DNA of 64,000 bases from a phage. The notes beneath the pieces were generated by a model. That model was not told where the DNA came from. It saw nothing but the letters and a program-made list of their open reading frames with translations, and ran no database searches. The stretch lies in the NCBI GenBank assembly GCA_038314665.1, contig GCA_038314665.1_3677.1, one strand, 5' to 3'. The stretch's first letter is position 1, and each line of letters begins with the position of its first letter. Shown here one piece after another: positions 2,960-56,007 of this stretch. The translations under genes were made by a program, and so were the position numbers.

Positions 2960-3433
2960 ATGGAAACTCAAATTTTAACTCCTTATGCGTATGACCCTAA
3001 AAAGGTCAAACTGTATCTGATGCAGCAGCGTGTCACTGGCTTCGCTGCTGACACCAAGATTGTTGTTTCAAGAAACGAAGACAACATTTATCCTCACGTC
3101 GGTGTGGATGGTGAAATGTCTGCGGCTCTGTCCCGTAACCAATCTGGTGTTATGACTGTGTCTTTGCAGAACACTTCTGTATGGAACGCTTACCTCTCTG
3201 ACTGGCAGAAACAGGCATCGATTACTGGCCTGGTATTCTTCCCGGTTCTGCTGGAAGGTAGCCAGGGCCCCGGTATTTCCACAATAGGTTGGATCCAGAA
3301 ACAGCCTGACCTGACTTACGGAACAGAAGTAGGTCAACTGGACTGGGATATCGGTATTCTGGATGCATGGCTCAACCGTGATAACATCACTGGTGCTCTC
3401 ACTGGCCTCGCAGGTCTTGCAGGTATTATCTAA
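2960..3433 (+). CDS. tail tube protein
   Basis: 157-aa ORF immediately after sheath gene, followed by a strong terminator; size and position typical of myovirus tube proteins. Confidence 0.55.
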   Translation: METQILTPYAYDPKKVKLYLMQQRVTGFAADTKIVVSRNEDNIYPHVGVDGEMSAALSRNQSGVMTVSLQNTSVWNAYLSDWQKQASITGLVFFPVLLEGSQGPGISTIGWIQKQPDLTYGTEVGQLDWDIGILDAWLNRDNITGALTGLAGLAGII

Positions 3434-3450
3434 GGGCACACTTTAGCATA

Positions 3451-3480
3451 AGCCTCACCTTAGGGTGGGGCTTTTTGCTT
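3451..3480 (+). terminator. rho-independent terminator
   Basis: GC-rich hairpin CCTCACC-TTAG-GGTGGGG followed by TTTTTGCTTTTTATT. Confidence 0.7.
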
Positions 3481-3524
3481 TTTATTGTTTTGACACACGT
3501 TCTTGAATTGCTTGAAAGGTTAAA

Positions 3525-3553
3525 TTGACAATGCATCATAATCATGGTAAAAT
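3525..3553 (+). promoter_or_regulatory. sigma70-like promoter with extended -10 (TTGACA-N17-TGgTAAAAT)
   Basis: -35 TTGACA 3525-3530, 17-nt spacer, -10 TAAAAT 3548-3553 preceded by TGG. Confidence 0.55.
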
Positions 3554-3596
3554 ACACAAATATGGTGCACAACATGACTAATAAGGATGCTATAAA

Positions 3597-4070
3597 ATGG
3601 CTATAAACTTTAGACCTACAACAGAGATTGATTTAGCAGGGCACAACTTTGTGATCACCCACTGGGGACCGATGAAAGCAATGAAAAACATGCCTAAAAT
3701 CGGTAAGATTGTGGCTGTTCCGCTAGGTGCTATCGGTGGATCTATTATCTCTGGCGGTCAGAATATGGCAGAGGTCCTTCCTACTGCCCTGGCTTACCTG
3801 TTCCAAGAACTTGATGATAACTCTATTGAAGAGTTATTTAAAATCTTGTTCGAAGATGTTACCGTGGATGGTGTAGATAAGCTTAACCCAGATGTTGTGT
3901 TTGCAGGGCATCTTCTGGAGATGATTAAGCTGGCAGGTAAGGTTCTGGAGGTTAACTACGGCTGTTTTTTCACACAAGACGGTTTAGGAAGCCTTCTGGA
4001 GATGTTACAGCAGATGGGTATGATTCAGCAGGTGAACAACCTGGATCAGACTCCGGAAGAGCAGGAATAA
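3597..4070 (+). CDS. tail assembly chaperone (G-like)
   Basis: 157-aa ORF between tube and tape-measure genes; contains slippery heptamer near its 3' end. Confidence 0.55.
   Translation: MAINFRPTTEIDLAGHNFVITHWGPMKAMKNMPKIGKIVAVPLGAIGGSIISGGQNMAEVLPTALAYLFQELDDNSIEELFKILFEDVTVDGVDKLNPDVVFAGHLLEMIKLAGKVLEVNYGCFFTQDGLGSLLEMLQQMGMIQQVNNLDQTPEEQE
3965..3971 (+). other. candidate -1 programmed ribosomal frameshift site (T TTT TTC)
   Basis: Heptamer in X XXY YYZ register of the 3597 ORF; the -1 frame is open from here with no stop through 4330, joining the 4082..4330 ORF. Confidence 0.45.
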
Positions 4071-4081
4071 GCAAGGTTGTT

Positions 4082-4330
4082 GTGAGGGCCAGTGAGTGGG
4101 CAGCCAAGAACAGTTCACTTAACTGGTTCGACTTTCTTTGGTGCAGGGTGCTCAAGAATTTCAAAGGGGAAAATTTTGAATCGCTAAATCTTGCAGATAT
4201 GGCGTATTTCCTGAAGCTCTGTGAGTATCTTGATATTGAAGAATTCCTAGATACCGTCCAAAACAGGGAAATGGAGCGGGAGCAGAAGGCTGCCGCAGCT
4301 GCTGCGAAAGCTAAGCGCAGGAGAGGATAA
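4082..4330 (+). CDS. C-terminal extension of tail assembly chaperone (GT-like, reached by -1 frameshift)
   Basis: Open frame with GTG pseudo-start and no convincing independent RBS; same frame as the -1 shift from 3965-3971; Lys/Ala-rich C-terminus. Confidence 0.45.
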   Translation: MRASEWAAKNSSLNWFDFLWCRVLKNFKGENFESLNLADMAYFLKLCEYLDIEEFLDTVQNREMEREQKAAAAAAKAKRRRG

Positions 4331-4334
4331 TCTA

Positions 4335-4372
4335 AGGGCCGGATTCCTTTTCTGGGATCTGGCCCTTTTTAT
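4335..4372 (+). terminator. hairpin plus U-tract between chaperone and tape-measure genes (possible attenuator)
   Basis: 10-bp stem AGGGCCGGAT/ATCTGGCCCT with one G-T wobble, followed by TTTTTATTATG. Confidence 0.45.
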
Positions 4373-4384
4373 TATGAGGAAACC

Positions 4385-6724
4385 ATGGCTACAAACAAAA
4401 TAGTTGCCACAACAGTCAACAAGATTGGCTTTGAGATAGAGAACTCCTCCTACAAAAAAGCTGTAGAGAAAATTCGCAGTATTGGGAGGGAGTTCAGGAA
4501 ACTAGGTGAGGATTTTAACTCAGCCAACCCCATGGGGAGATGGCAGGCGGTAGCTGTTAAAACCCAGCAGACAATGCAGAGGGTTGCCAGACAGCAATCT
4601 CAGGCAAATGCTAAACTGCACAGGGAGAGCGTAACACAGGCTAAGAAAGAGGCTGCAGTAAGGGCTGCAATAGAACGTAGGGAGAATGCGAGACGTAAAC
4701 AAGCTGTAGGTAATCTTACCGCTAAAAATCCAGAAATGGCTAGGATGCGTAAGTTCTACCAGCAGCAAGCTAAAGAGGCCAAAAAGGCTGCCAAATCTGC
4801 ACCAGTGTCTTACGGTGGTTATAAGGCACCTAAGGCAAGAGTTTTGGCTAATGCCAAATCTTTCAAATATATCCCCGGTAACCCTAATATGGGTGGTGTG
4901 GCTTCCGACCCTAACCTTGTGAAAGCTCAGACAGCCGCTATGAATCGTTATCATAGACAGCTAAGAAGAGACAGTAAAGCTGGTATGGATAATAAGCTTA
5001 TGTCGGATCGTGAGGCAAGGAGAACCCACCTCTACAACTCCGCGATAAGACTTTCTGCCAAGTATGGGGCCGGATTCCGTGGAAGCTTGCCAGGATACTC
5101 AGAGTTAGAGTCCAGGTTTGCTCGTGGGGAGATGAAAAAGTCAACATTTAATGCCCACTTGTCAGCGCTGCAGTCTGGATTTAAAAGCGCCACCAGTCAA
5201 ACGCTTACACTAGGCGATGCCATGAGAGACCTACGTAGATCTGTTATTAATGCAACAGCTGCGTATACGGCTTTTTCTGGATTTACTGCTGTTAACAGAT
5301 CCGGTCACATGATGGAGGGTGCAAGTGCTGCTCTTACTGCTGTTACTGGAGATCCAAACAAAGCCAACAGTGAGGTTGCGTTTGTCCAGCAAGAGGCTAT
5401 GCGTCTTGGTTTTGATCTCAAATCTGGTCTTCAAGGTTACGCCCAGATGGCGGTAAACGCCAAAAACCAGATGACAAATCAGGAGGTTCATGAGCTGTTC
5501 TCTGCATACTCCCAGTATGCTGCTGCTTATGGTGCTGATGAGGTAAAATATCAGCGCGGTATCATGGCAATACAACAAATGCTAGGCAAGGGACAAGTAA
5601 TGTCCGAAGAACTGAAGCAACAACTTGCTGAAGCGTTGCCTGGTGCATACGAACCTTTTATCAAGGCCACCAAAGAGGCTTTTGGTCTTTCTGAACTATC
5701 CATGGATCAGTTCATGGACATGATGAAGAAAGGTGAGGTTAAAACAGCCAAGATCATGAAGTATGTGGCTAAGTACATGAACGAGGCATCTGCAGCTGGT
5801 TATGAAAGAATGCAGAAGTCTAACGTACTGGCAGAAAACAGACTGAAAACCTTCATCGAACTGTCTCGTCAGAAACTGTTCACCCGTTGGGCAGATGAAT
5901 TGACAGAGTTCTACTACACCCTGATCCGCACAGGTGAGACTCTGCAATTTGTGTGGGATGCCTCAGGTGATTTTGTTAGCGGATTTATTAGAGGCCTTAA
6001 CTGGGTTGTTGGTGAGCTAAACAACACTATAGTTAAGATCCGCCTGTTTTTCCTTGAGTGGGGCATCAAATGGGGGTTCATAACAGCTAAGACGAAGGAG
6101 TATTCCGAAGAGCTGCATGACACCTTCAGCACTGCCAAATGGGCAGGGTATGCTGCTGCCATTATGCTGGTAGTGCACGCTCTTACAAAAGGGTTTGTCA
6201 TGGCATCCATGCTTGTAAAAACTTTTAAGTTCCTTAGCACCCTGAAAGGTGCAGCTGGAGCTGCTGGCGCTGGTGCCATCACCACAGGGGGTTCTGTAGG
6301 TGGCGCAGCAGGAAAAGGTGGTGGAATAAAAGCACCAGGCATCAAAGGTACCGGTATGTTAGGCAAGTTGGGGATACTTGGGACATTATTGAGTGCTGGG
6401 GCTATGGTTAATGATCGTTTCAACCCTTTCAGTGAGAGAAATCAACAGCTGGATACTATTAGTGACATGATCCGCAAAGATATAGTATCGGGTGGCAACG
6501 GGTTTGTTAATCCTCTAGACACTTTACCTGGTGGAACCCTTCCGCTACCCGGTGGTCCTGGTTTTGCCTCTCAACTGAGAACCATGGAAATGTTACCTTT
6601 GGAGATCAGCGATGGTAAAATCACCATTTCGATAGATGAAGGTGAGTTTAGCAAAATACTTGATGCAAAACTTGAGTGGGAGAATAACAAAGATATTAAC
6701 TTTATGTCAACAGATCTTTGGTAA
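4385..6724 (+). CDS. tail tape measure protein
   Basis: 779-aa ORF after the chaperone pair; long predicted helical N-terminal part, Gly/Ala-rich hydrophobic segment (GAAGAAGAGAITTGGSVGGAAGKGGG), GGAAACC RBS. Confidence 0.7.
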   Translation: MATNKIVATTVNKIGFEIENSSYKKAVEKIRSIGREFRKLGEDFNSANPMGRWQAVAVKTQQTMQRVARQQSQANAKLHRESVTQAKKEAAVRAAIERRENARRKQAVGNLTAKNPEMARMRKFYQQQAKEAKKAAKSAPVSYGGYKAPKARVLANAKSFKYIPGNPNMGGVASDPNLVKAQTAAMNRYHRQLRRDSKAGMDNKLMSDREARRTHLYNSAIRLSAKYGAGFRGSLPGYSELESRFARGEMKKSTFNAHLSALQSGFKSATSQTLTLGDAMRDLRRSVINATAAYTAFSGFTAVNRSGHMMEGASAALTAVTGDPNKANSEVAFVQQEAMRLGFDLKSGLQGYAQMAVNAKNQMTNQEVHELFSAYSQYAAAYGADEVKYQRGIMAIQQMLGKGQVMSEELKQQLAEALPGAYEPFIKATKEAFGLSELSMDQFMDMMKKGEVKTAKIMKYVAKYMNEASAAGYERMQKSNVLAENRLKTFIELSRQKLFTRWADELTEFYYTLIRTGETLQFVWDASGDFVSGFIRGLNWVVGELNNTIVKIRLFFLEWGIKWGFITAKTKEYSEELHDTFSTAKWAGYAAAIMLVVHALTKGFVMASMLVKTFKFLSTLKGAAGAAGAGAITTGGSVGGAAGKGGGIKAPGIKGTGMLGKLGILGTLLSAGAMVNDRFNPFSERNQQLDTISDMIRKDIVSGGNGFVNPLDTLPGGTLPLPGGPGFASQLRTMEMLPLEISDGKITISIDEGEFSKILDAKLEWENNKDINFMSTDLW

Positions 6725-49352: not shown

Positions 49353-49853
49353 GTGAAAATTAAGATCTTTGCTATTATTTTGAGCGCATTTTTATCGCTG
49401 CCTGTTGTTGCAGCACCAAAACAAAAAGTATACCATACTTGCAAGCCATCAGATACTAAGGAAAACATTCTAGCATGCAATATCTACAGGGAAGCTAGAG
49501 GTGATGGCACGATGGGTATGCTGGCATCTGGGTTTGCCACCCTAAACAGGAAATCTCACCCCAAATACCCAGACACTATAAGAAAGATTGTCTACCAACC
49601 TAACCAGTTTTCGTGGACAAACCACGGCAAAACTTTTAAGGTGACAGAAAAAGATTCATGGGATCACGCTAAAAGTCTTGCAAAGATGCTTCTAAAGGTC
49701 TATAATAACAACCATGTTGCATACATGGCTATGGATATAACAGGTGGAGCAACACACTACCATACAACCAAAGTACGACCGAAATGGGCAAAAAAGATGC
49801 AGAGGACAGCTCAATTCGGGAGCCATATCTACTACAAGGAGTGCAATAAATGA
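49353..49853 (+). CDS. cell wall hydrolase (SleB/Hydrolase_2-like) with N-terminal signal peptide
   Basis: 166 aa; hydrophobic N-terminus MKIKIFAIILSAFLSLPVVAAP; motifs YREARGDG, NQFSWTNHG and GATHYHT resemble the SleB-type hydrolase fold. Confidence 0.55.
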   Translation: MKIKIFAIILSAFLSLPVVAAPKQKVYHTCKPSDTKENILACNIYREARGDGTMGMLASGFATLNRKSHPKYPDTIRKIVYQPNQFSWTNHGKTFKVTEKDSWDHAKSLAKMLLKVYNNNHVAYMAMDITGGATHYHTTKVRPKWAKKMQRTAQFGSHIYYKECNK

Positions 49854-55524: not shown

Positions 55525-56007
55525 ATGTCAGATTTTATGTGGAAAGTTGGTTATTCCTCCCCTGAAATGTGTAAGGCCTGTTTTGTGAAAATAGGTCGCG
55601 AAGATATCGACAAAGTGATCCTTAAGTTTCGTGATGTGGCTGTGATCGGCAACCGAGTGCTTAAGCACTTAAAGAATCTGAAGCTCACCAAAAAGAAATT
55701 CTTCGGACTTTTCGAAGAGAAAGTTGATGCTTGGACCCATTGCATTCAGGAAGCTAAATCTCACTACAGTGCTATCGTTACCCCAGAACGGGTAGCCAAG
55801 ATGGAAGGACTCATCAACAGCACAGAGTTTGAGTGTCTGAAAGCTGCACTCGATAGTTATCCGAAATGCCTCAAGCACTTGGACAAGTATGTAGAAAAGG
55901 ATGGGGAAATGTATCTCACCCTGGACGCATACTATGAGATGCAAGAAATTTTAAATTTAGATTTGACATTGGTATCCACCGAGTATACAATAGGTATCCG
56001 GGTTTAA
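55525..56007 (+). CDS. hypothetical protein
   Basis: 160-aa ORF with AAGGAGAAGG RBS. Confidence 0.45.
   Translation: MSDFMWKVGYSSPEMCKACFVKIGREDIDKVILKFRDVAVIGNRVLKHLKNLKLTKKKFFGLFEEKVDAWTHCIQEAKSHYSAIVTPERVAKMEGLINSTEFECLKAALDSYPKCLKHLDKYVEKDGEMYLTLDAYYEMQEILNLDLTLVSTEYTIGIRV

What the first reader, a model, noticed from the sequence alone, without database searches (positions are those of the whole stretch)
3965..4330. Conserved -1 programmed frameshift in the tail assembly chaperone pair
The slippery heptamer T TTT TTC sits in the correct register 100 nt before the stop of the 3597 ORF, and the -1 frame is open from there through 4330 (I translated it codon by codon and found no stop). 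The downstream ORF has no convincing independent start. This is the G/GT arrangement conserved in long-tailed phages.
Basis: partly seen in the sequence, partly recalled or inferred. Interest (0 to 1): 0.45.

Follow-up and report, generated by a model that had tools for sequence, protein, structure and literature searches.

The report
Tail chaperone G/GT frameshift site
An rV5-like E. coli phage almost certainly makes a short and a long tail assembly chaperone from one gene by a conserved -1 ribosomal slip at T TTT TTC; this is the ordinary, well-known phage G/GT arrangement, but public records of this phage group do not annotate it.

Summary
The window comes from an rV5-like coliphage (Vequintavirus). 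Between the tail tube gene and the tape measure gene lies a tail assembly chaperone gene at 3597-4070 (Pfam Phage_TAC_15). T TTT TTC at 3965-3971 sits in the X XXY YYZ register of that gene. The -1 frame is open from 3956 to the stop at 4328-4330. The predicted products are G (157 aa) and GT (244 aa).

The comparative evidence is strong. In 67 distinct homologous loci from several phage groups:
- the codon before Phe-Phe always ends in T, although its amino acid varies (Cys, Ser, Pro);
- the first Phe codon is always TTT;
- the -1 frame stays open into a homologous T domain.

Half of the well-aligned relatives have no start codon upstream of the conserved T motif. One lineage replaces the site with G GGA AAG. 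An SD-like GGAGG lies 13 nt upstream and is widely conserved. No conserved downstream RNA structure was found.

Nothing here is experimental. The kind is known: lambda G/GT, a joined CDS at the same site in Mooglevirus Mordin, and a 2025 paper on sister families. This is a new member of a known kind and, in practice, an annotation gap. Interest is low.

The parts
2960..3433 (+). Tail tube gene (context). By analogy with lambda, it is the likely binding partner of the T domain.
   Evidence: Pfam KPP10_Orf10 7.2e-09 and phrog_280. Annotated 'tail tube protein' in several rV5-like records.
3450..3473 (+). Terminator-like hairpin followed by a T run, between the tube gene and the chaperone gene.
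   Evidence: A terminator is annotated at the same place in phage Murica.
3525..3553 (+). Sigma-70-like promoter upstream of the chaperone gene: TTGACA, 17 nt spacer, TAAAAT, with TG before the -10 hexamer (11 of 12 matches).
   Evidence: This is a consensus match only.
3597..4070 (+). Gene G: the short tail assembly chaperone, 157 aa, 17.2 kDa, pI 4.5.
   Evidence: Pfam Phage_TAC_15 7.8e-24 and phrog_3840 4e-69. In the AF2 model residues 1-123 are folded and residues 124-157 have pLDDT below 50. Mass and pI.
3947..3951 (+). SD-like GGAGG, 13 nt upstream of the heptamer. Candidate upstream stimulator of the shift.
   Evidence: [quoted passage not shown] The Glu codon there is GAG 54 against GAA 5, while window usage is 0.54 to 0.46. 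Motifs of this type at this spacing are experimentally stimulatory in E. coli (PMC4066793).
3953..3955 (+). Last stop codon (TAA) of the -1 frame before the shift site.
3965..3971 (+). Slippery heptamer T TTT TTC, in register with gene G.
   Evidence: Conserved in 67 of 67 distinct homologous loci (T TTT TTC in 61, T TTT TTT in 6). U_UU.U_UU.C is among the efficient E. coli motifs.
3971..4330 (+). The -1 frame segment of GT: 119 codons plus the stop. GT consists of residues 1-125 of G followed by HTRRFRKP...RRRG, giving 244 aa and 27.1 kDa.
   Evidence: tblastn aligns from residue 1 of this segment in Seunavirus and Mydovirus at 51-60% identity.
3971..4075 (+). Gly/Ser/Pro-rich linker of GT (-1 frame). 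It overlaps the acidic C-terminal tail of G (0 frame, 3972-4067).
   Evidence: Its length and sequence vary among relatives but it is always stop-free. Residues 1-35 of the T part are predicted disordered, in a low-confidence model.
4076..4327 (+). T domain: helical, with a conserved NSSLxW[FY]D motif.
   Evidence: phrog_10409 1.9e-51, a family of unknown function. Alignment. Four helices predicted at low confidence.
4082..4084 (+). GTG that gene callers use as the start of a separate 82-aa ORF. Probably not the main route to the T domain.
   Evidence: The start is not conserved: 8 of 16 relatives have no start codon before the conserved motif. An 8-nt perfect inverted repeat, 4035-4042 with 4074-4081, would sequester its AAGG.
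4334..4367 (+). Terminator-like hairpin (14 pairs) followed by a T run, between GT and the tape measure gene.
   Evidence: Annotated as a terminator in Murica.
4385..6724 (+). Tape measure protein gene (context).
   Evidence: Pfam TMP_3 4e-18; phrog_5255, E-value reported as 0.

Best explanation
This is the G/GT tail assembly chaperone pair of an rV5-like myovirus, expressed by a -1 programmed ribosomal frameshift.

Most ribosomes read gene G (3597-4070) to its stop and make the 157-aa chaperone. A minority slip back one base. This happens while tRNA-Phe occupies the P site on UUU 3966-3968 and the A site on UUC 3969-3971. Both tRNAs re-pair on UUU 3965-3967 and UUU 3968-3970. Decoding then resumes at CAC 3971 and runs to the stop at 4328-4330. 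The product is a 244-aa GT protein: the folded G core, a flexible Gly/Ser-rich linker, and a helical T domain.

The SD-like GGAGG 13 nt upstream probably raises the slip frequency by pairing with 16S rRNA. No downstream RNA structure seems to be involved.

By analogy with lambda, G and the G part of GT coat the tape measure protein. The T domain recruits the tube subunit, and neither protein stays in the virion.

What is shown: the anatomy, nucleotide-level selection on the heptamer, and coding conservation of the -1 frame starting at the shift site.

What is inferred: that the shift occurs, its frequency, the role of the SD-like element, and the binding partners.
For: - Gene identity and position between the tube and tape measure genes.
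- Register and open -1 frame.
- Synonymous-site conservation in 67 distinct homologous loci, including 69 IMG/VR loci retrieved with a codon-blind peptide pattern. The codon before Phe-Phe is TGT 22, AGT 19, CCT 13 or TCT 13, so it always ends in T. Phe1 is TTT in 67 of 67. Phe2 is TTC 61 and TTT 6. Neighbouring codons vary freely (AAC 53/AAT 12; TAC, TAT, TTC, TTT; GGC, GGA, GGT, GGG). Window codon usage is close to 50:50 for these choices.
- The -1 frame is open 76-128 codons after the heptamer in every locus except one T7 outlier.
- The -1 peptide is conserved from the junction, with an RFRKP-like motif and then NSSLxW[FY]D.
- 8 of 16 well-aligned relatives have no ATG, GTG or TTG between the heptamer and the conserved T motif.
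- Barbavirus has lost T TTT TTC but carries an in-register G GGA AAG four codons downstream, with the -1 frame open into a homologous T domain.
- Felixounavirus CL1 has one extra T and so encodes the fusion in a single frame, with RSKHFQKP after the run.
- Mooglevirus Mordin is annotated with a joined CDS over this locus, and T TTT TTC is its only in-register heptamer.
- SD-like element: present in 56 of 67 loci, with GAG 54 against GAA 5. Motif efficiency and SD spacing rules come from PMC4066793.
- The slip site falls exactly at the end of the folded G core in the AF2 model.
- Within the window the site is unique among 77 in-register heptamers.
Against: - No experimental evidence exists for a GT product in any Vequintavirus. 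The rV5 genome and proteome paper does not mention a frameshift or a chaperone.
- Public records annotate two separate CDS or leave the T ORF out.
- A GTG with a weak AAGG exists at 4082 in this phage, so some independent initiation cannot be excluded.
- No downstream stimulatory structure was found. Local folds have z about 0. The consensus fold of 10 relatives is -4.7 kcal/mol with no compensatory pairs.
- Part of the nucleotide conservation around the site is confounded by the conserved NYGxFF and LEV peptides and by dual coding in the overlap.
- The loci are phylogenetically related, so the counts are not independent trials.
Confidence: 0.88

Rival explanations
1. These are two independent genes, as annotated in GenBank. 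The T ORF is translated on its own from GTG 4082, perhaps by coupling to termination of G at 4068-4070. The heptamer is then only a by-product of a conserved Cys-Phe-Phe peptide.
For: GTG 4082 is preceded by AAGG and lies 12 nt after the G stop. Gene callers and PHROGs (phrog_10409, an 82-position profile) treat it as a separate protein.
Against: - The start is not conserved. Annotated starts in relatives scatter over about 150 nt, and 8 of 16 relatives have no start codon before the most conserved T motif.
- The -1 frame is stop-free and conserved at the peptide level from the heptamer onward, upstream of any start.
- The third base of the codon before Phe-Phe and the TTT choice for Phe1 are invariant in 67 of 67 loci, which the protein does not require.
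- An inverted repeat would occlude the AAGG.
Confidence: 0.05
2. The fusion is made by transcriptional slippage. RNA polymerase adds one extra U on the T6 run, giving a subset of mRNAs in which G and T are in one frame. The ribosome does not shift.
For: - The site is a homopolymer run.
- A run of T6 or more is conserved in almost all relatives.
- A T7 variant exists in one deposited genome, CL1, which shows that the run is indel-prone or error-prone.
- PMC4066793 notes that U7 and A7 runs can cause transcriptional slippage.
Against: - Six residues is shorter than the runs of about 8-9 known to give substantial slippage by bacterial RNA polymerase (my own knowledge, not tested here).
- The Barbavirus homologue uses G GGA AAG, which has no long run and is a classical ribosomal heptamer.
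- A conserved SD-like element at the spacing known to stimulate ribosomal -1 shifting, with a GAG over GAA bias of 54 to 5, is explained only by a ribosomal mechanism.
Confidence: 0.05
3. The arrangement is a non-functional remnant. Only G is functional, and the -1 ORF is a decaying or fortuitous open frame.
For: No experimental evidence exists for GT. The T part has no Pfam or NCBIfam family and no relative with a solved structure.
Against: The T part is conserved from 27% to 100% identity in 356 phage records. It keeps its frame relative to the heptamer despite linker length changes.
Confidence: 0.02

Closest known systems
Phage lambda G/GT tail assembly chaperones (Levin, Hendrix and Casjens 1993; Xu, Hendrix and Duda 2004, 2013, 2014; summarised in PMC5009743)
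   Same: - Two overlapping ORFs between the major tail/tube gene and the tape measure gene.
- The downstream ORF is in the -1 frame without a conserved start of its own.
- An in-register X XXY YYZ heptamer lies near the 3' end of G.
- No strong downstream structure.
- The long form is the G core plus a T domain.
   Different: - The heptamer is T TTT TTC rather than G GGA AAG.
- The host virus is a large (about 137 kb) lytic myovirus.
- There is no detectable sequence similarity to lambda G or T. The G part belongs to Pfam Phage_TAC_15.
- A conserved SD-like element lies upstream.
- The frameshift ratio and binding partners are untested.
Homologous chaperone locus of Ounavirinae (Felixounavirus, and Mooglevirus Mordin, Moogle and Sf14)
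   Same: - Homologous G protein (24-31% identity).
- The same NFGSFF motif, the same T TTT TTC in the same register, and the same upstream GGAGG at the same spacing.
- Mordin NC_041977 carries a joined CDS.
   Different: - The overlap is shorter (36-45 nt against 99 nt).
- The T part is shorter (92-93 aa).
- The frameshift is already annotated or suspected there, whereas no sampled Vequintavirinae or Stephanstirmvirinae record annotates it.
Vandenendeviridae (Pakpunavirus) and Andersonviridae TAC-N/TAC-NC locus, as proposed for Pseudomonas phage Adele (PMC12846349)
   Same: - A conserved poly-T motif (GTTTTT) near the 3' end of TAC-N.
- The -1 frame is uninterrupted in all genomes.
- The downstream 'hypothetical protein' is reinterpreted as the C-terminal part of the long isoform.
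- These clades are related to Vequintavirinae by virion proteins.
   Different: That paper did not analyse the locus in Vequintavirinae or Stephanstirmvirinae. Its case is also purely bioinformatic.
E. coli dnaX and IS911/IS3 -1 frameshift signals
   Same: A heptamer plus an SD-like element upstream, within the 6-17 nt range that is experimentally stimulatory (PMC4066793).
   Different: dnaX and the IS elements also use a downstream hairpin or pseudoknot, and none is detectable or conserved here. The dnaX shift gives a shorter product, whereas the shift here gives a longer one.

Membership tests
G/GT-type tail assembly chaperone pair with programmed -1 frameshift | Located between the major tail (tube) gene and the tape measure gene, on the same strand. 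| tested here: met
   Order on the + strand: sheath 1573-2949, tube 2960-3433, G 3597-4070, T ORF to 4330, tape measure 4385-6724.
G/GT-type tail assembly chaperone pair with programmed -1 frameshift | The upstream ORF belongs to a tail assembly chaperone family. | tested here: met
   Pfam PF21822 Phage_TAC_15, 85 bits against a cut-off of 22. phrog_3840 'tail assembly chaperone' at 4e-69.
G/GT-type tail assembly chaperone pair with programmed -1 frameshift | The downstream ORF overlaps the 3' end of G in the -1 frame and extends well beyond the G stop. | tested here: met
   The -1 frame is open 3956-4330, with a 115-nt overlap and 260 nt beyond the stop.
G/GT-type tail assembly chaperone pair with programmed -1 frameshift | A slippery heptamer X XXY YYZ lies in the 0-frame register within the overlap. 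| tested here: met
   T TTT TTC at 3965-3971, with codons TTT 3966-3968 and TTC 3969-3971.
G/GT-type tail assembly chaperone pair with programmed -1 frameshift | The slip site and frame relation are conserved among divergent relatives beyond what the protein requires. | tested here: met
   In 67 of 67 distinct loci the preceding codon ends in T and Phe1 is TTT. The -1 frame is open in all but one T7 outlier. Barbavirus substitutes G GGA AAG.
G/GT-type tail assembly chaperone pair with programmed -1 frameshift | The downstream ORF lacks an independent translation start. | tested here: met
   No conserved start. 8 of 16 relatives have no ATG, GTG or TTG before the conserved T motif. The window has only GTG 4082 with a weak AAGG.
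G/GT-type tail assembly chaperone pair with programmed -1 frameshift | Both G and the fusion GT are produced, at a fixed low ratio. | not testable with these tools
   Needs proteomics, Western blotting or a reporter assay. No such data were found for rV5-like phages.
G/GT-type tail assembly chaperone pair with programmed -1 frameshift | G binds the tape measure protein, T binds the tube protein, and both are absent from virions. | not testable with these tools
   Inferred from lambda (PMC5009743).
SD-stimulated -1 frameshift signal (dnaX / IS911 type) | An SD-like sequence lies 6-17 nt upstream of the second base of the heptamer. | tested here: met
   GGAGG at 3947-3951, with spacing 14-15. 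Present in 56 of 67 loci. GAG 54 against GAA 5.
SD-stimulated -1 frameshift signal (dnaX / IS911 type) | A downstream hairpin or pseudoknot lies 5-9 nt after the heptamer. | tested here: not met
   The local MFE is not better than shuffles (z about 0 to +1). The consensus fold of 10 relatives is -4.7 kcal/mol with 0 compensatory pairs. There is no Rfam match.
Transcriptional slippage site | A long homopolymer run, typically about 8-9 or more A or T in bacteria (my own knowledge). | tested here: not met
   The run is T6 in the window and in 61 of 67 loci. The Barbavirus homologue has no run at all.

The most novel reading that the evidence does not exclude
The frameshift in this large clade of myoviruses may be driven by the heptamer plus a conserved upstream SD-like element (GGAGG, GAGGTG) and no downstream structure. 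The clade comprises Vequintavirinae, Stephanstirmvirinae, Ounavirinae and relatives. That would be a signal architecture distinct from lambda G/GT. It would be maintained for a very long time by synonymous selection, seen as GAG over GAA at 54 to 5. The G:GT ratio would then be tuned through anti-SD pairing.
Probability: 0.4. Interest if true: 0.35.

Novelty: new member of a known kind. Interest (0 to 1): 0.2.

Why it matters
The main value is for annotation.

- About 120 Vequintavirus genomes, and some 230 further Vequintavirinae and Stephanstirmvirinae genomes, list the T part as a separate hypothetical protein or leave it out. Many of these phages are candidates for therapy or biocontrol.
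- The T part should be annotated as the C-terminal part of a frameshifted tail assembly chaperone (join 3597..3971, 3971..4330 in window coordinates).
- PHROG families 10409, 8811 and 16039, now 'unknown function', could be named accordingly.
- The invariant T TTT TTC with its conserved upstream SD-like element gives a clean natural series for studying how G:GT stoichiometry is set without a downstream RNA structure.
- It adds nothing conceptually new to what is known about G/GT frameshifting.

Tried and rejected
- Downstream stimulatory hairpin or pseudoknot. Folds of +1..+45, +59, +70 and +104 nt in the window and in 16 relatives showed no consistent stable structure. Only the Acinetobacter and Aeromonas relatives have a hairpin with z of about -2.5 to -2.9. 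A long-range stem in the window (3992-4001 with 4051-4059, z = -2.0) is not conserved. RNAalifold on 10 relatives gave -4.7 kcal/mol and no compensatory pairs. Rejected as a conserved feature.
- Rfam scan of 3400-4500: only two sub-threshold chance hits.
- Natural in-frame G-T fusions ('Rosetta stone' evidence). A search of the large protein database with the 244-aa fusion returned 73 hits, all 149-159 aa G proteins. The only in-frame fusion seen is Felixounavirus CL1, a T7 outlier. All 32 other listed Felixounavirus records at 96-98% identity span one base less. It is probably an indel or a sequencing error.
- Literature. No paper was found that describes the frameshift in rV5-like phages. 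The paper on T4-like chaperones could not be retrieved. A search for PDB code 5IR0 returned only chemistry papers.
The T part folded alone gave a low-confidence model (pLDDT 53), so no fold search was run on it.
- The T part has no family in Pfam or NCBIfam and no relative with a solved structure.
- The +1 frame was considered as an alternative. It is open for only 19 codons, so it was rejected.

Full report
**What the window is**

The region 3400-4500 is 95-99% identical to about 118 rV5-like coliphage genomes (Vequintavirus, Vequintavirinae). The finding lies in a tail module on the + strand:
- head completion protein, 524-949
- tail terminator, 949-1500
- sheath, 1573-2949 (phrog_205)
- tube, 2960-3433 (KPP10_Orf10, phrog_280)
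- a 157-aa ORF, 3597-4070
- an 82-aa ORF, 4082-4330
- tape measure protein, 4385-6724 (TMP_3, phrog_5255)

The 157-aa ORF is a tail assembly chaperone. It matches Pfam Phage_TAC_15 at 7.8e-24 (85 bits against a cut-off of 22) and phrog_3840 at 4e-69. The 82-aa ORF matches only phrog_10409, a family of unknown function.

**Check of the observation**

ATG 3597 sets the frame. The codons at the site are TGT 3963-3965, TTT 3966-3968 and TTC 3969-3971. T TTT TTC at 3965-3971 is therefore in the X XXY YYZ register, 99 nt before the end of the stop codon at 4068-4070.

The -1 frame has a stop at 3953-3955, just before the heptamer. It is then open through 4330. The ORF 4082-4330 is in that same frame. 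After a -1 shift decoding resumes at CAC 3971. The product is a 244-aa, 27.1-kDa fusion, against a 157-aa, 17.2-kDa G protein.

Two internal controls show that the site is unusual:
- ORFs of 100 aa or more in the window contain 77 in-register X XXY YYZ heptamers. This is the only one whose -1 frame runs far past the 0-frame stop (119 codons, +260 nt; next best 52 codons, +107 nt).
- TTTTTTC is under-represented in the window, with 6 copies against 17.2 +/- 4.0 in shuffles.

**Comparative evidence for the slip site**

A tblastn search with the conceptual fusion found 491 phage records. In 355 of them both parts were matched.

I read the locus in 22 GenBank genomes. They cover Seunavirus, Mydovirus, Certrevirus, unclassified Vequintavirinae, Phapecoctavirus, Justusliebigvirus, Plateaulakevirus, Barbavirus, Felixounavirus and Mooglevirus. 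I also read 69 IMG/VR loci. These were retrieved with a peptide pattern that is blind to codon choice.

Together they give 67 distinct sequence contexts:

| Position | Codons observed |
|---|---|
| Codon before Phe-Phe | TGT 22, AGT 19, CCT 13, TCT 13 |
| First Phe | TTT 67 of 67 |
| Second Phe | TTC 61, TTT 6 |
| Neighbouring Asn | AAC 53, AAT 12 |
| Neighbouring Tyr/Phe | TAC 36, TAT 15, TTC 13, TTT 3 |
| Neighbouring Gly/Ala | GGC, GGA, GGT, GGG and GCN |

The amino acid before Phe-Phe changes between Cys, Ser and Pro, and Ser uses both of its codon families. Its third base is T every time. The neighbouring codons vary freely at synonymous positions.

Codon usage in the window is near 50:50 for these choices: TTT 0.54, TGT 0.48, CCT 0.48, T-ending Ser 0.50. 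The heptamer is therefore under selection at the nucleotide level. The loci are related, so these counts are not independent trials. Even so, repeated amino-acid replacement with retention of the wobble T is hard to explain otherwise.

**Evidence that the -1 frame is translated from the heptamer**

- The -1 frame is stop-free for 76-128 codons after the heptamer in every context except one. The linker between the shift site and the T domain varies in length and sequence.
- The -1 peptide is conserved immediately after the junction: HTRRFRKP in the window, HERRFRRP in PVP-SE1, HEKRFRKP in ABPH49, QT-RFRKT in ESCO13. Conservation resumes in the T domain at NSSLxW[FY]D.
- tblastn with the -1 translation starting at codon 3971 aligns from residue 1 in Seunavirus and Mydovirus at 51-60% identity. 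Part of the conservation inside the overlap could come from the 0 frame (G-F/L-G).
- Conservation beyond the G stop cannot come from the 0 frame. There, 8 of 16 well-aligned relatives have no ATG, GTG or TTG at all before the conserved T motif.
- The starts annotated by gene callers scatter over about 150 nt. In CR3, KpS8 and ABPH49 they cut off the conserved motif.

**Three natural 'experiments'**

- Rheinheimera Barbavirus has lost the T run (HYGCLTSGKSF). It carries an in-register G GGA AAG, the lambda heptamer, four codons downstream. Its -1 frame is open into a homologous T domain.
- Felixounavirus CL1 has T7 instead of T6 and is annotated with one 213-aa 'tape measure chaperone'. The sequence after the run, RSKHFQKP, matches the -1 peptide of the other phages. 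All 32 other listed Felixounavirus records at 96-98% identity span one base less, so CL1 is an outlier.
- Mooglevirus Mordin (NC_041977) already carries a joined CDS over this locus, where T TTT TTC is the only in-register heptamer in the short chaperone ORF.

**Mechanism**

U_UU.U_UU.C is one of the efficient -1 heptamers in E. coli (class H_HH.U_UU.Y). It is under-represented in E. coli genes (PMC4066793).

An SD-like GGAGG lies at 3947-3951, 13 nt before the heptamer. [quoted passage not shown] The Glu codon that supplies it is GAG 54 against GAA 5, while window usage is 0.54 to 0.46. The same paper lists these motifs, at 6-17 nt, as experimentally stimulatory. The element is partly confounded by the conserved LEV peptide, so I treat it as a probable stimulator and not a proven one.

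No downstream stimulator was found. Local folds are no more stable than shuffles. A long-range stem in the window is not conserved. The consensus fold of ten relatives has -4.7 kcal/mol and no compensatory pair. Rfam has nothing.

Transcriptional slippage is a weak rival. The run is only six residues. The Barbavirus site has no run. The SD-like element makes sense only for a ribosomal event.

**Protein architecture**

An AlphaFold2 model of G was built from 26 homologues (pLDDT 66, pTM 0.62). Residues 1-123 are folded and residues 124-157 have pLDDT below 50. The shift at F124-F125 therefore falls exactly at the end of the core.

In G the core is followed by an acidic tail (pI 4.05). In GT it is followed by a basic Gly/Ser/Pro-rich linker and a helical domain. 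The T-part model is low-confidence (pLDDT 53; pI values).

The only solved relative of the core is 5ir0, ORF19 of a Vibrio cholerae PICI-like element. The match is weak: profile E = 0.006, Foldseek probability 0.98, TM 0.60.

Function is inferred from lambda. There the G parts bind the tape measure protein and the T part recruits the tube subunit. The G:GT ratio is about 30:1, and neither protein is in the virion (PMC5009743).

**What is known**

G/GT frameshifting is a textbook feature of long-tailed phages. For the wider clade around this phage, a 2025 paper argues bioinformatically for a -1 shift at a conserved GTTTTT motif. It covers Vandenendeviridae and Andersonviridae chaperone genes (PMC12846349).

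I found no paper that describes the frameshift in rV5-like phages. About 25 Vequintavirinae and Stephanstirmvirinae records were inspected in detail. About 100 more were checked by the names of their annotated features. None carries a joined CDS. They list a separate hypothetical protein or nothing.

**Verdict**

It is a new member of a known kind and, in practice, an annotation gap. Interest is low (0.2).

The one mildly novel element is the conserved upstream SD-like sequence without a downstream structure, which could be tested with a synonymous GAG-to-GAA change.

Noticed in passing
L018 1030-1036 (Escherichia phage CL1, OK040806): A T7 run replaces the usual T6, so the chaperone is annotated as one 213-aa in-frame G-T fusion. 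All 32 other listed Felixounavirus records at 96-98% identity span one base less. This is either a sequencing or assembly indel, or a natural all-GT variant.
   Followed up: partly
L017 1024-1030 (Rheinheimera phage Barba18A, NC_048189): The homologous chaperone has lost T TTT TTC. It carries an in-register G GGA AAG (the lambda heptamer) four codons downstream, with the -1 frame open 931-1311 into a homologous T domain. This is a case of slippery-site replacement.
   Followed up: partly
window 3450-3473, 3525-3553 and 4334-4367: The G/GT pair is bracketed by two terminator-like hairpins and preceded by a near-consensus sigma-70 promoter (TTGACA, 17 nt, TAAAAT, with TG). It looks like a separate transcription unit inside the tail module. 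The terminator just before the tape measure gene is unexpected.
   Followed up: no
window 4035-4042 and 4074-4081: A perfect 8-nt inverted repeat (AACAACCT / AGGTTGTT). If it forms, it would sequester the AAGG and abut the GTG 4082 that gene callers use as the T ORF start.
   Followed up: no
GenBank MG0656xx records: Eighteen records named 'Campylobacter phage', with host C. jejuni, are about 98.5% identical to this E. coli rV5-like phage across the region. Others match Felixounavirus and Phapecoctavirus. This looks like mislabelling or contamination in that submission series.
   Followed up: no
PDB 5ir0: The best solved relative of the chaperone core, by both sequence profile and fold, is ORF19 of a Vibrio cholerae PICI-like element. 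The function of ORF19 is unknown. The match hints that this phage satellite encodes a protein resembling a tail assembly chaperone. The match is weak (E = 0.006; Foldseek probability 0.98, TM 0.60).
   Followed up: no
window 49790-49796, in ORF 49353-49853 (+): An in-register A AAA AAG, the most shift-prone heptamer in E. coli, lies 57 nt before the stop. Its -1 frame runs 17 codons and ends 4 nt before the 0-frame stop. Probably fortuitous.
   Followed up: no
window 55950-55959, in ORF 55525-56007 (+): Overlapping in-register heptamers T TTA AAT and A AAT TTA lie near the 3' end. Their -1 frame is open for 51-52 codons, 107 nt past the stop. This is the only other -1 extension of that kind on the + strand of the window.
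   Followed up: no
PHROG families 10409, 8811 and 16039: These families of 'unknown function' match the T part of the frameshifted chaperone. They appear to be artefacts of calling the -1 ORF as a separate gene.
   Followed up: partly
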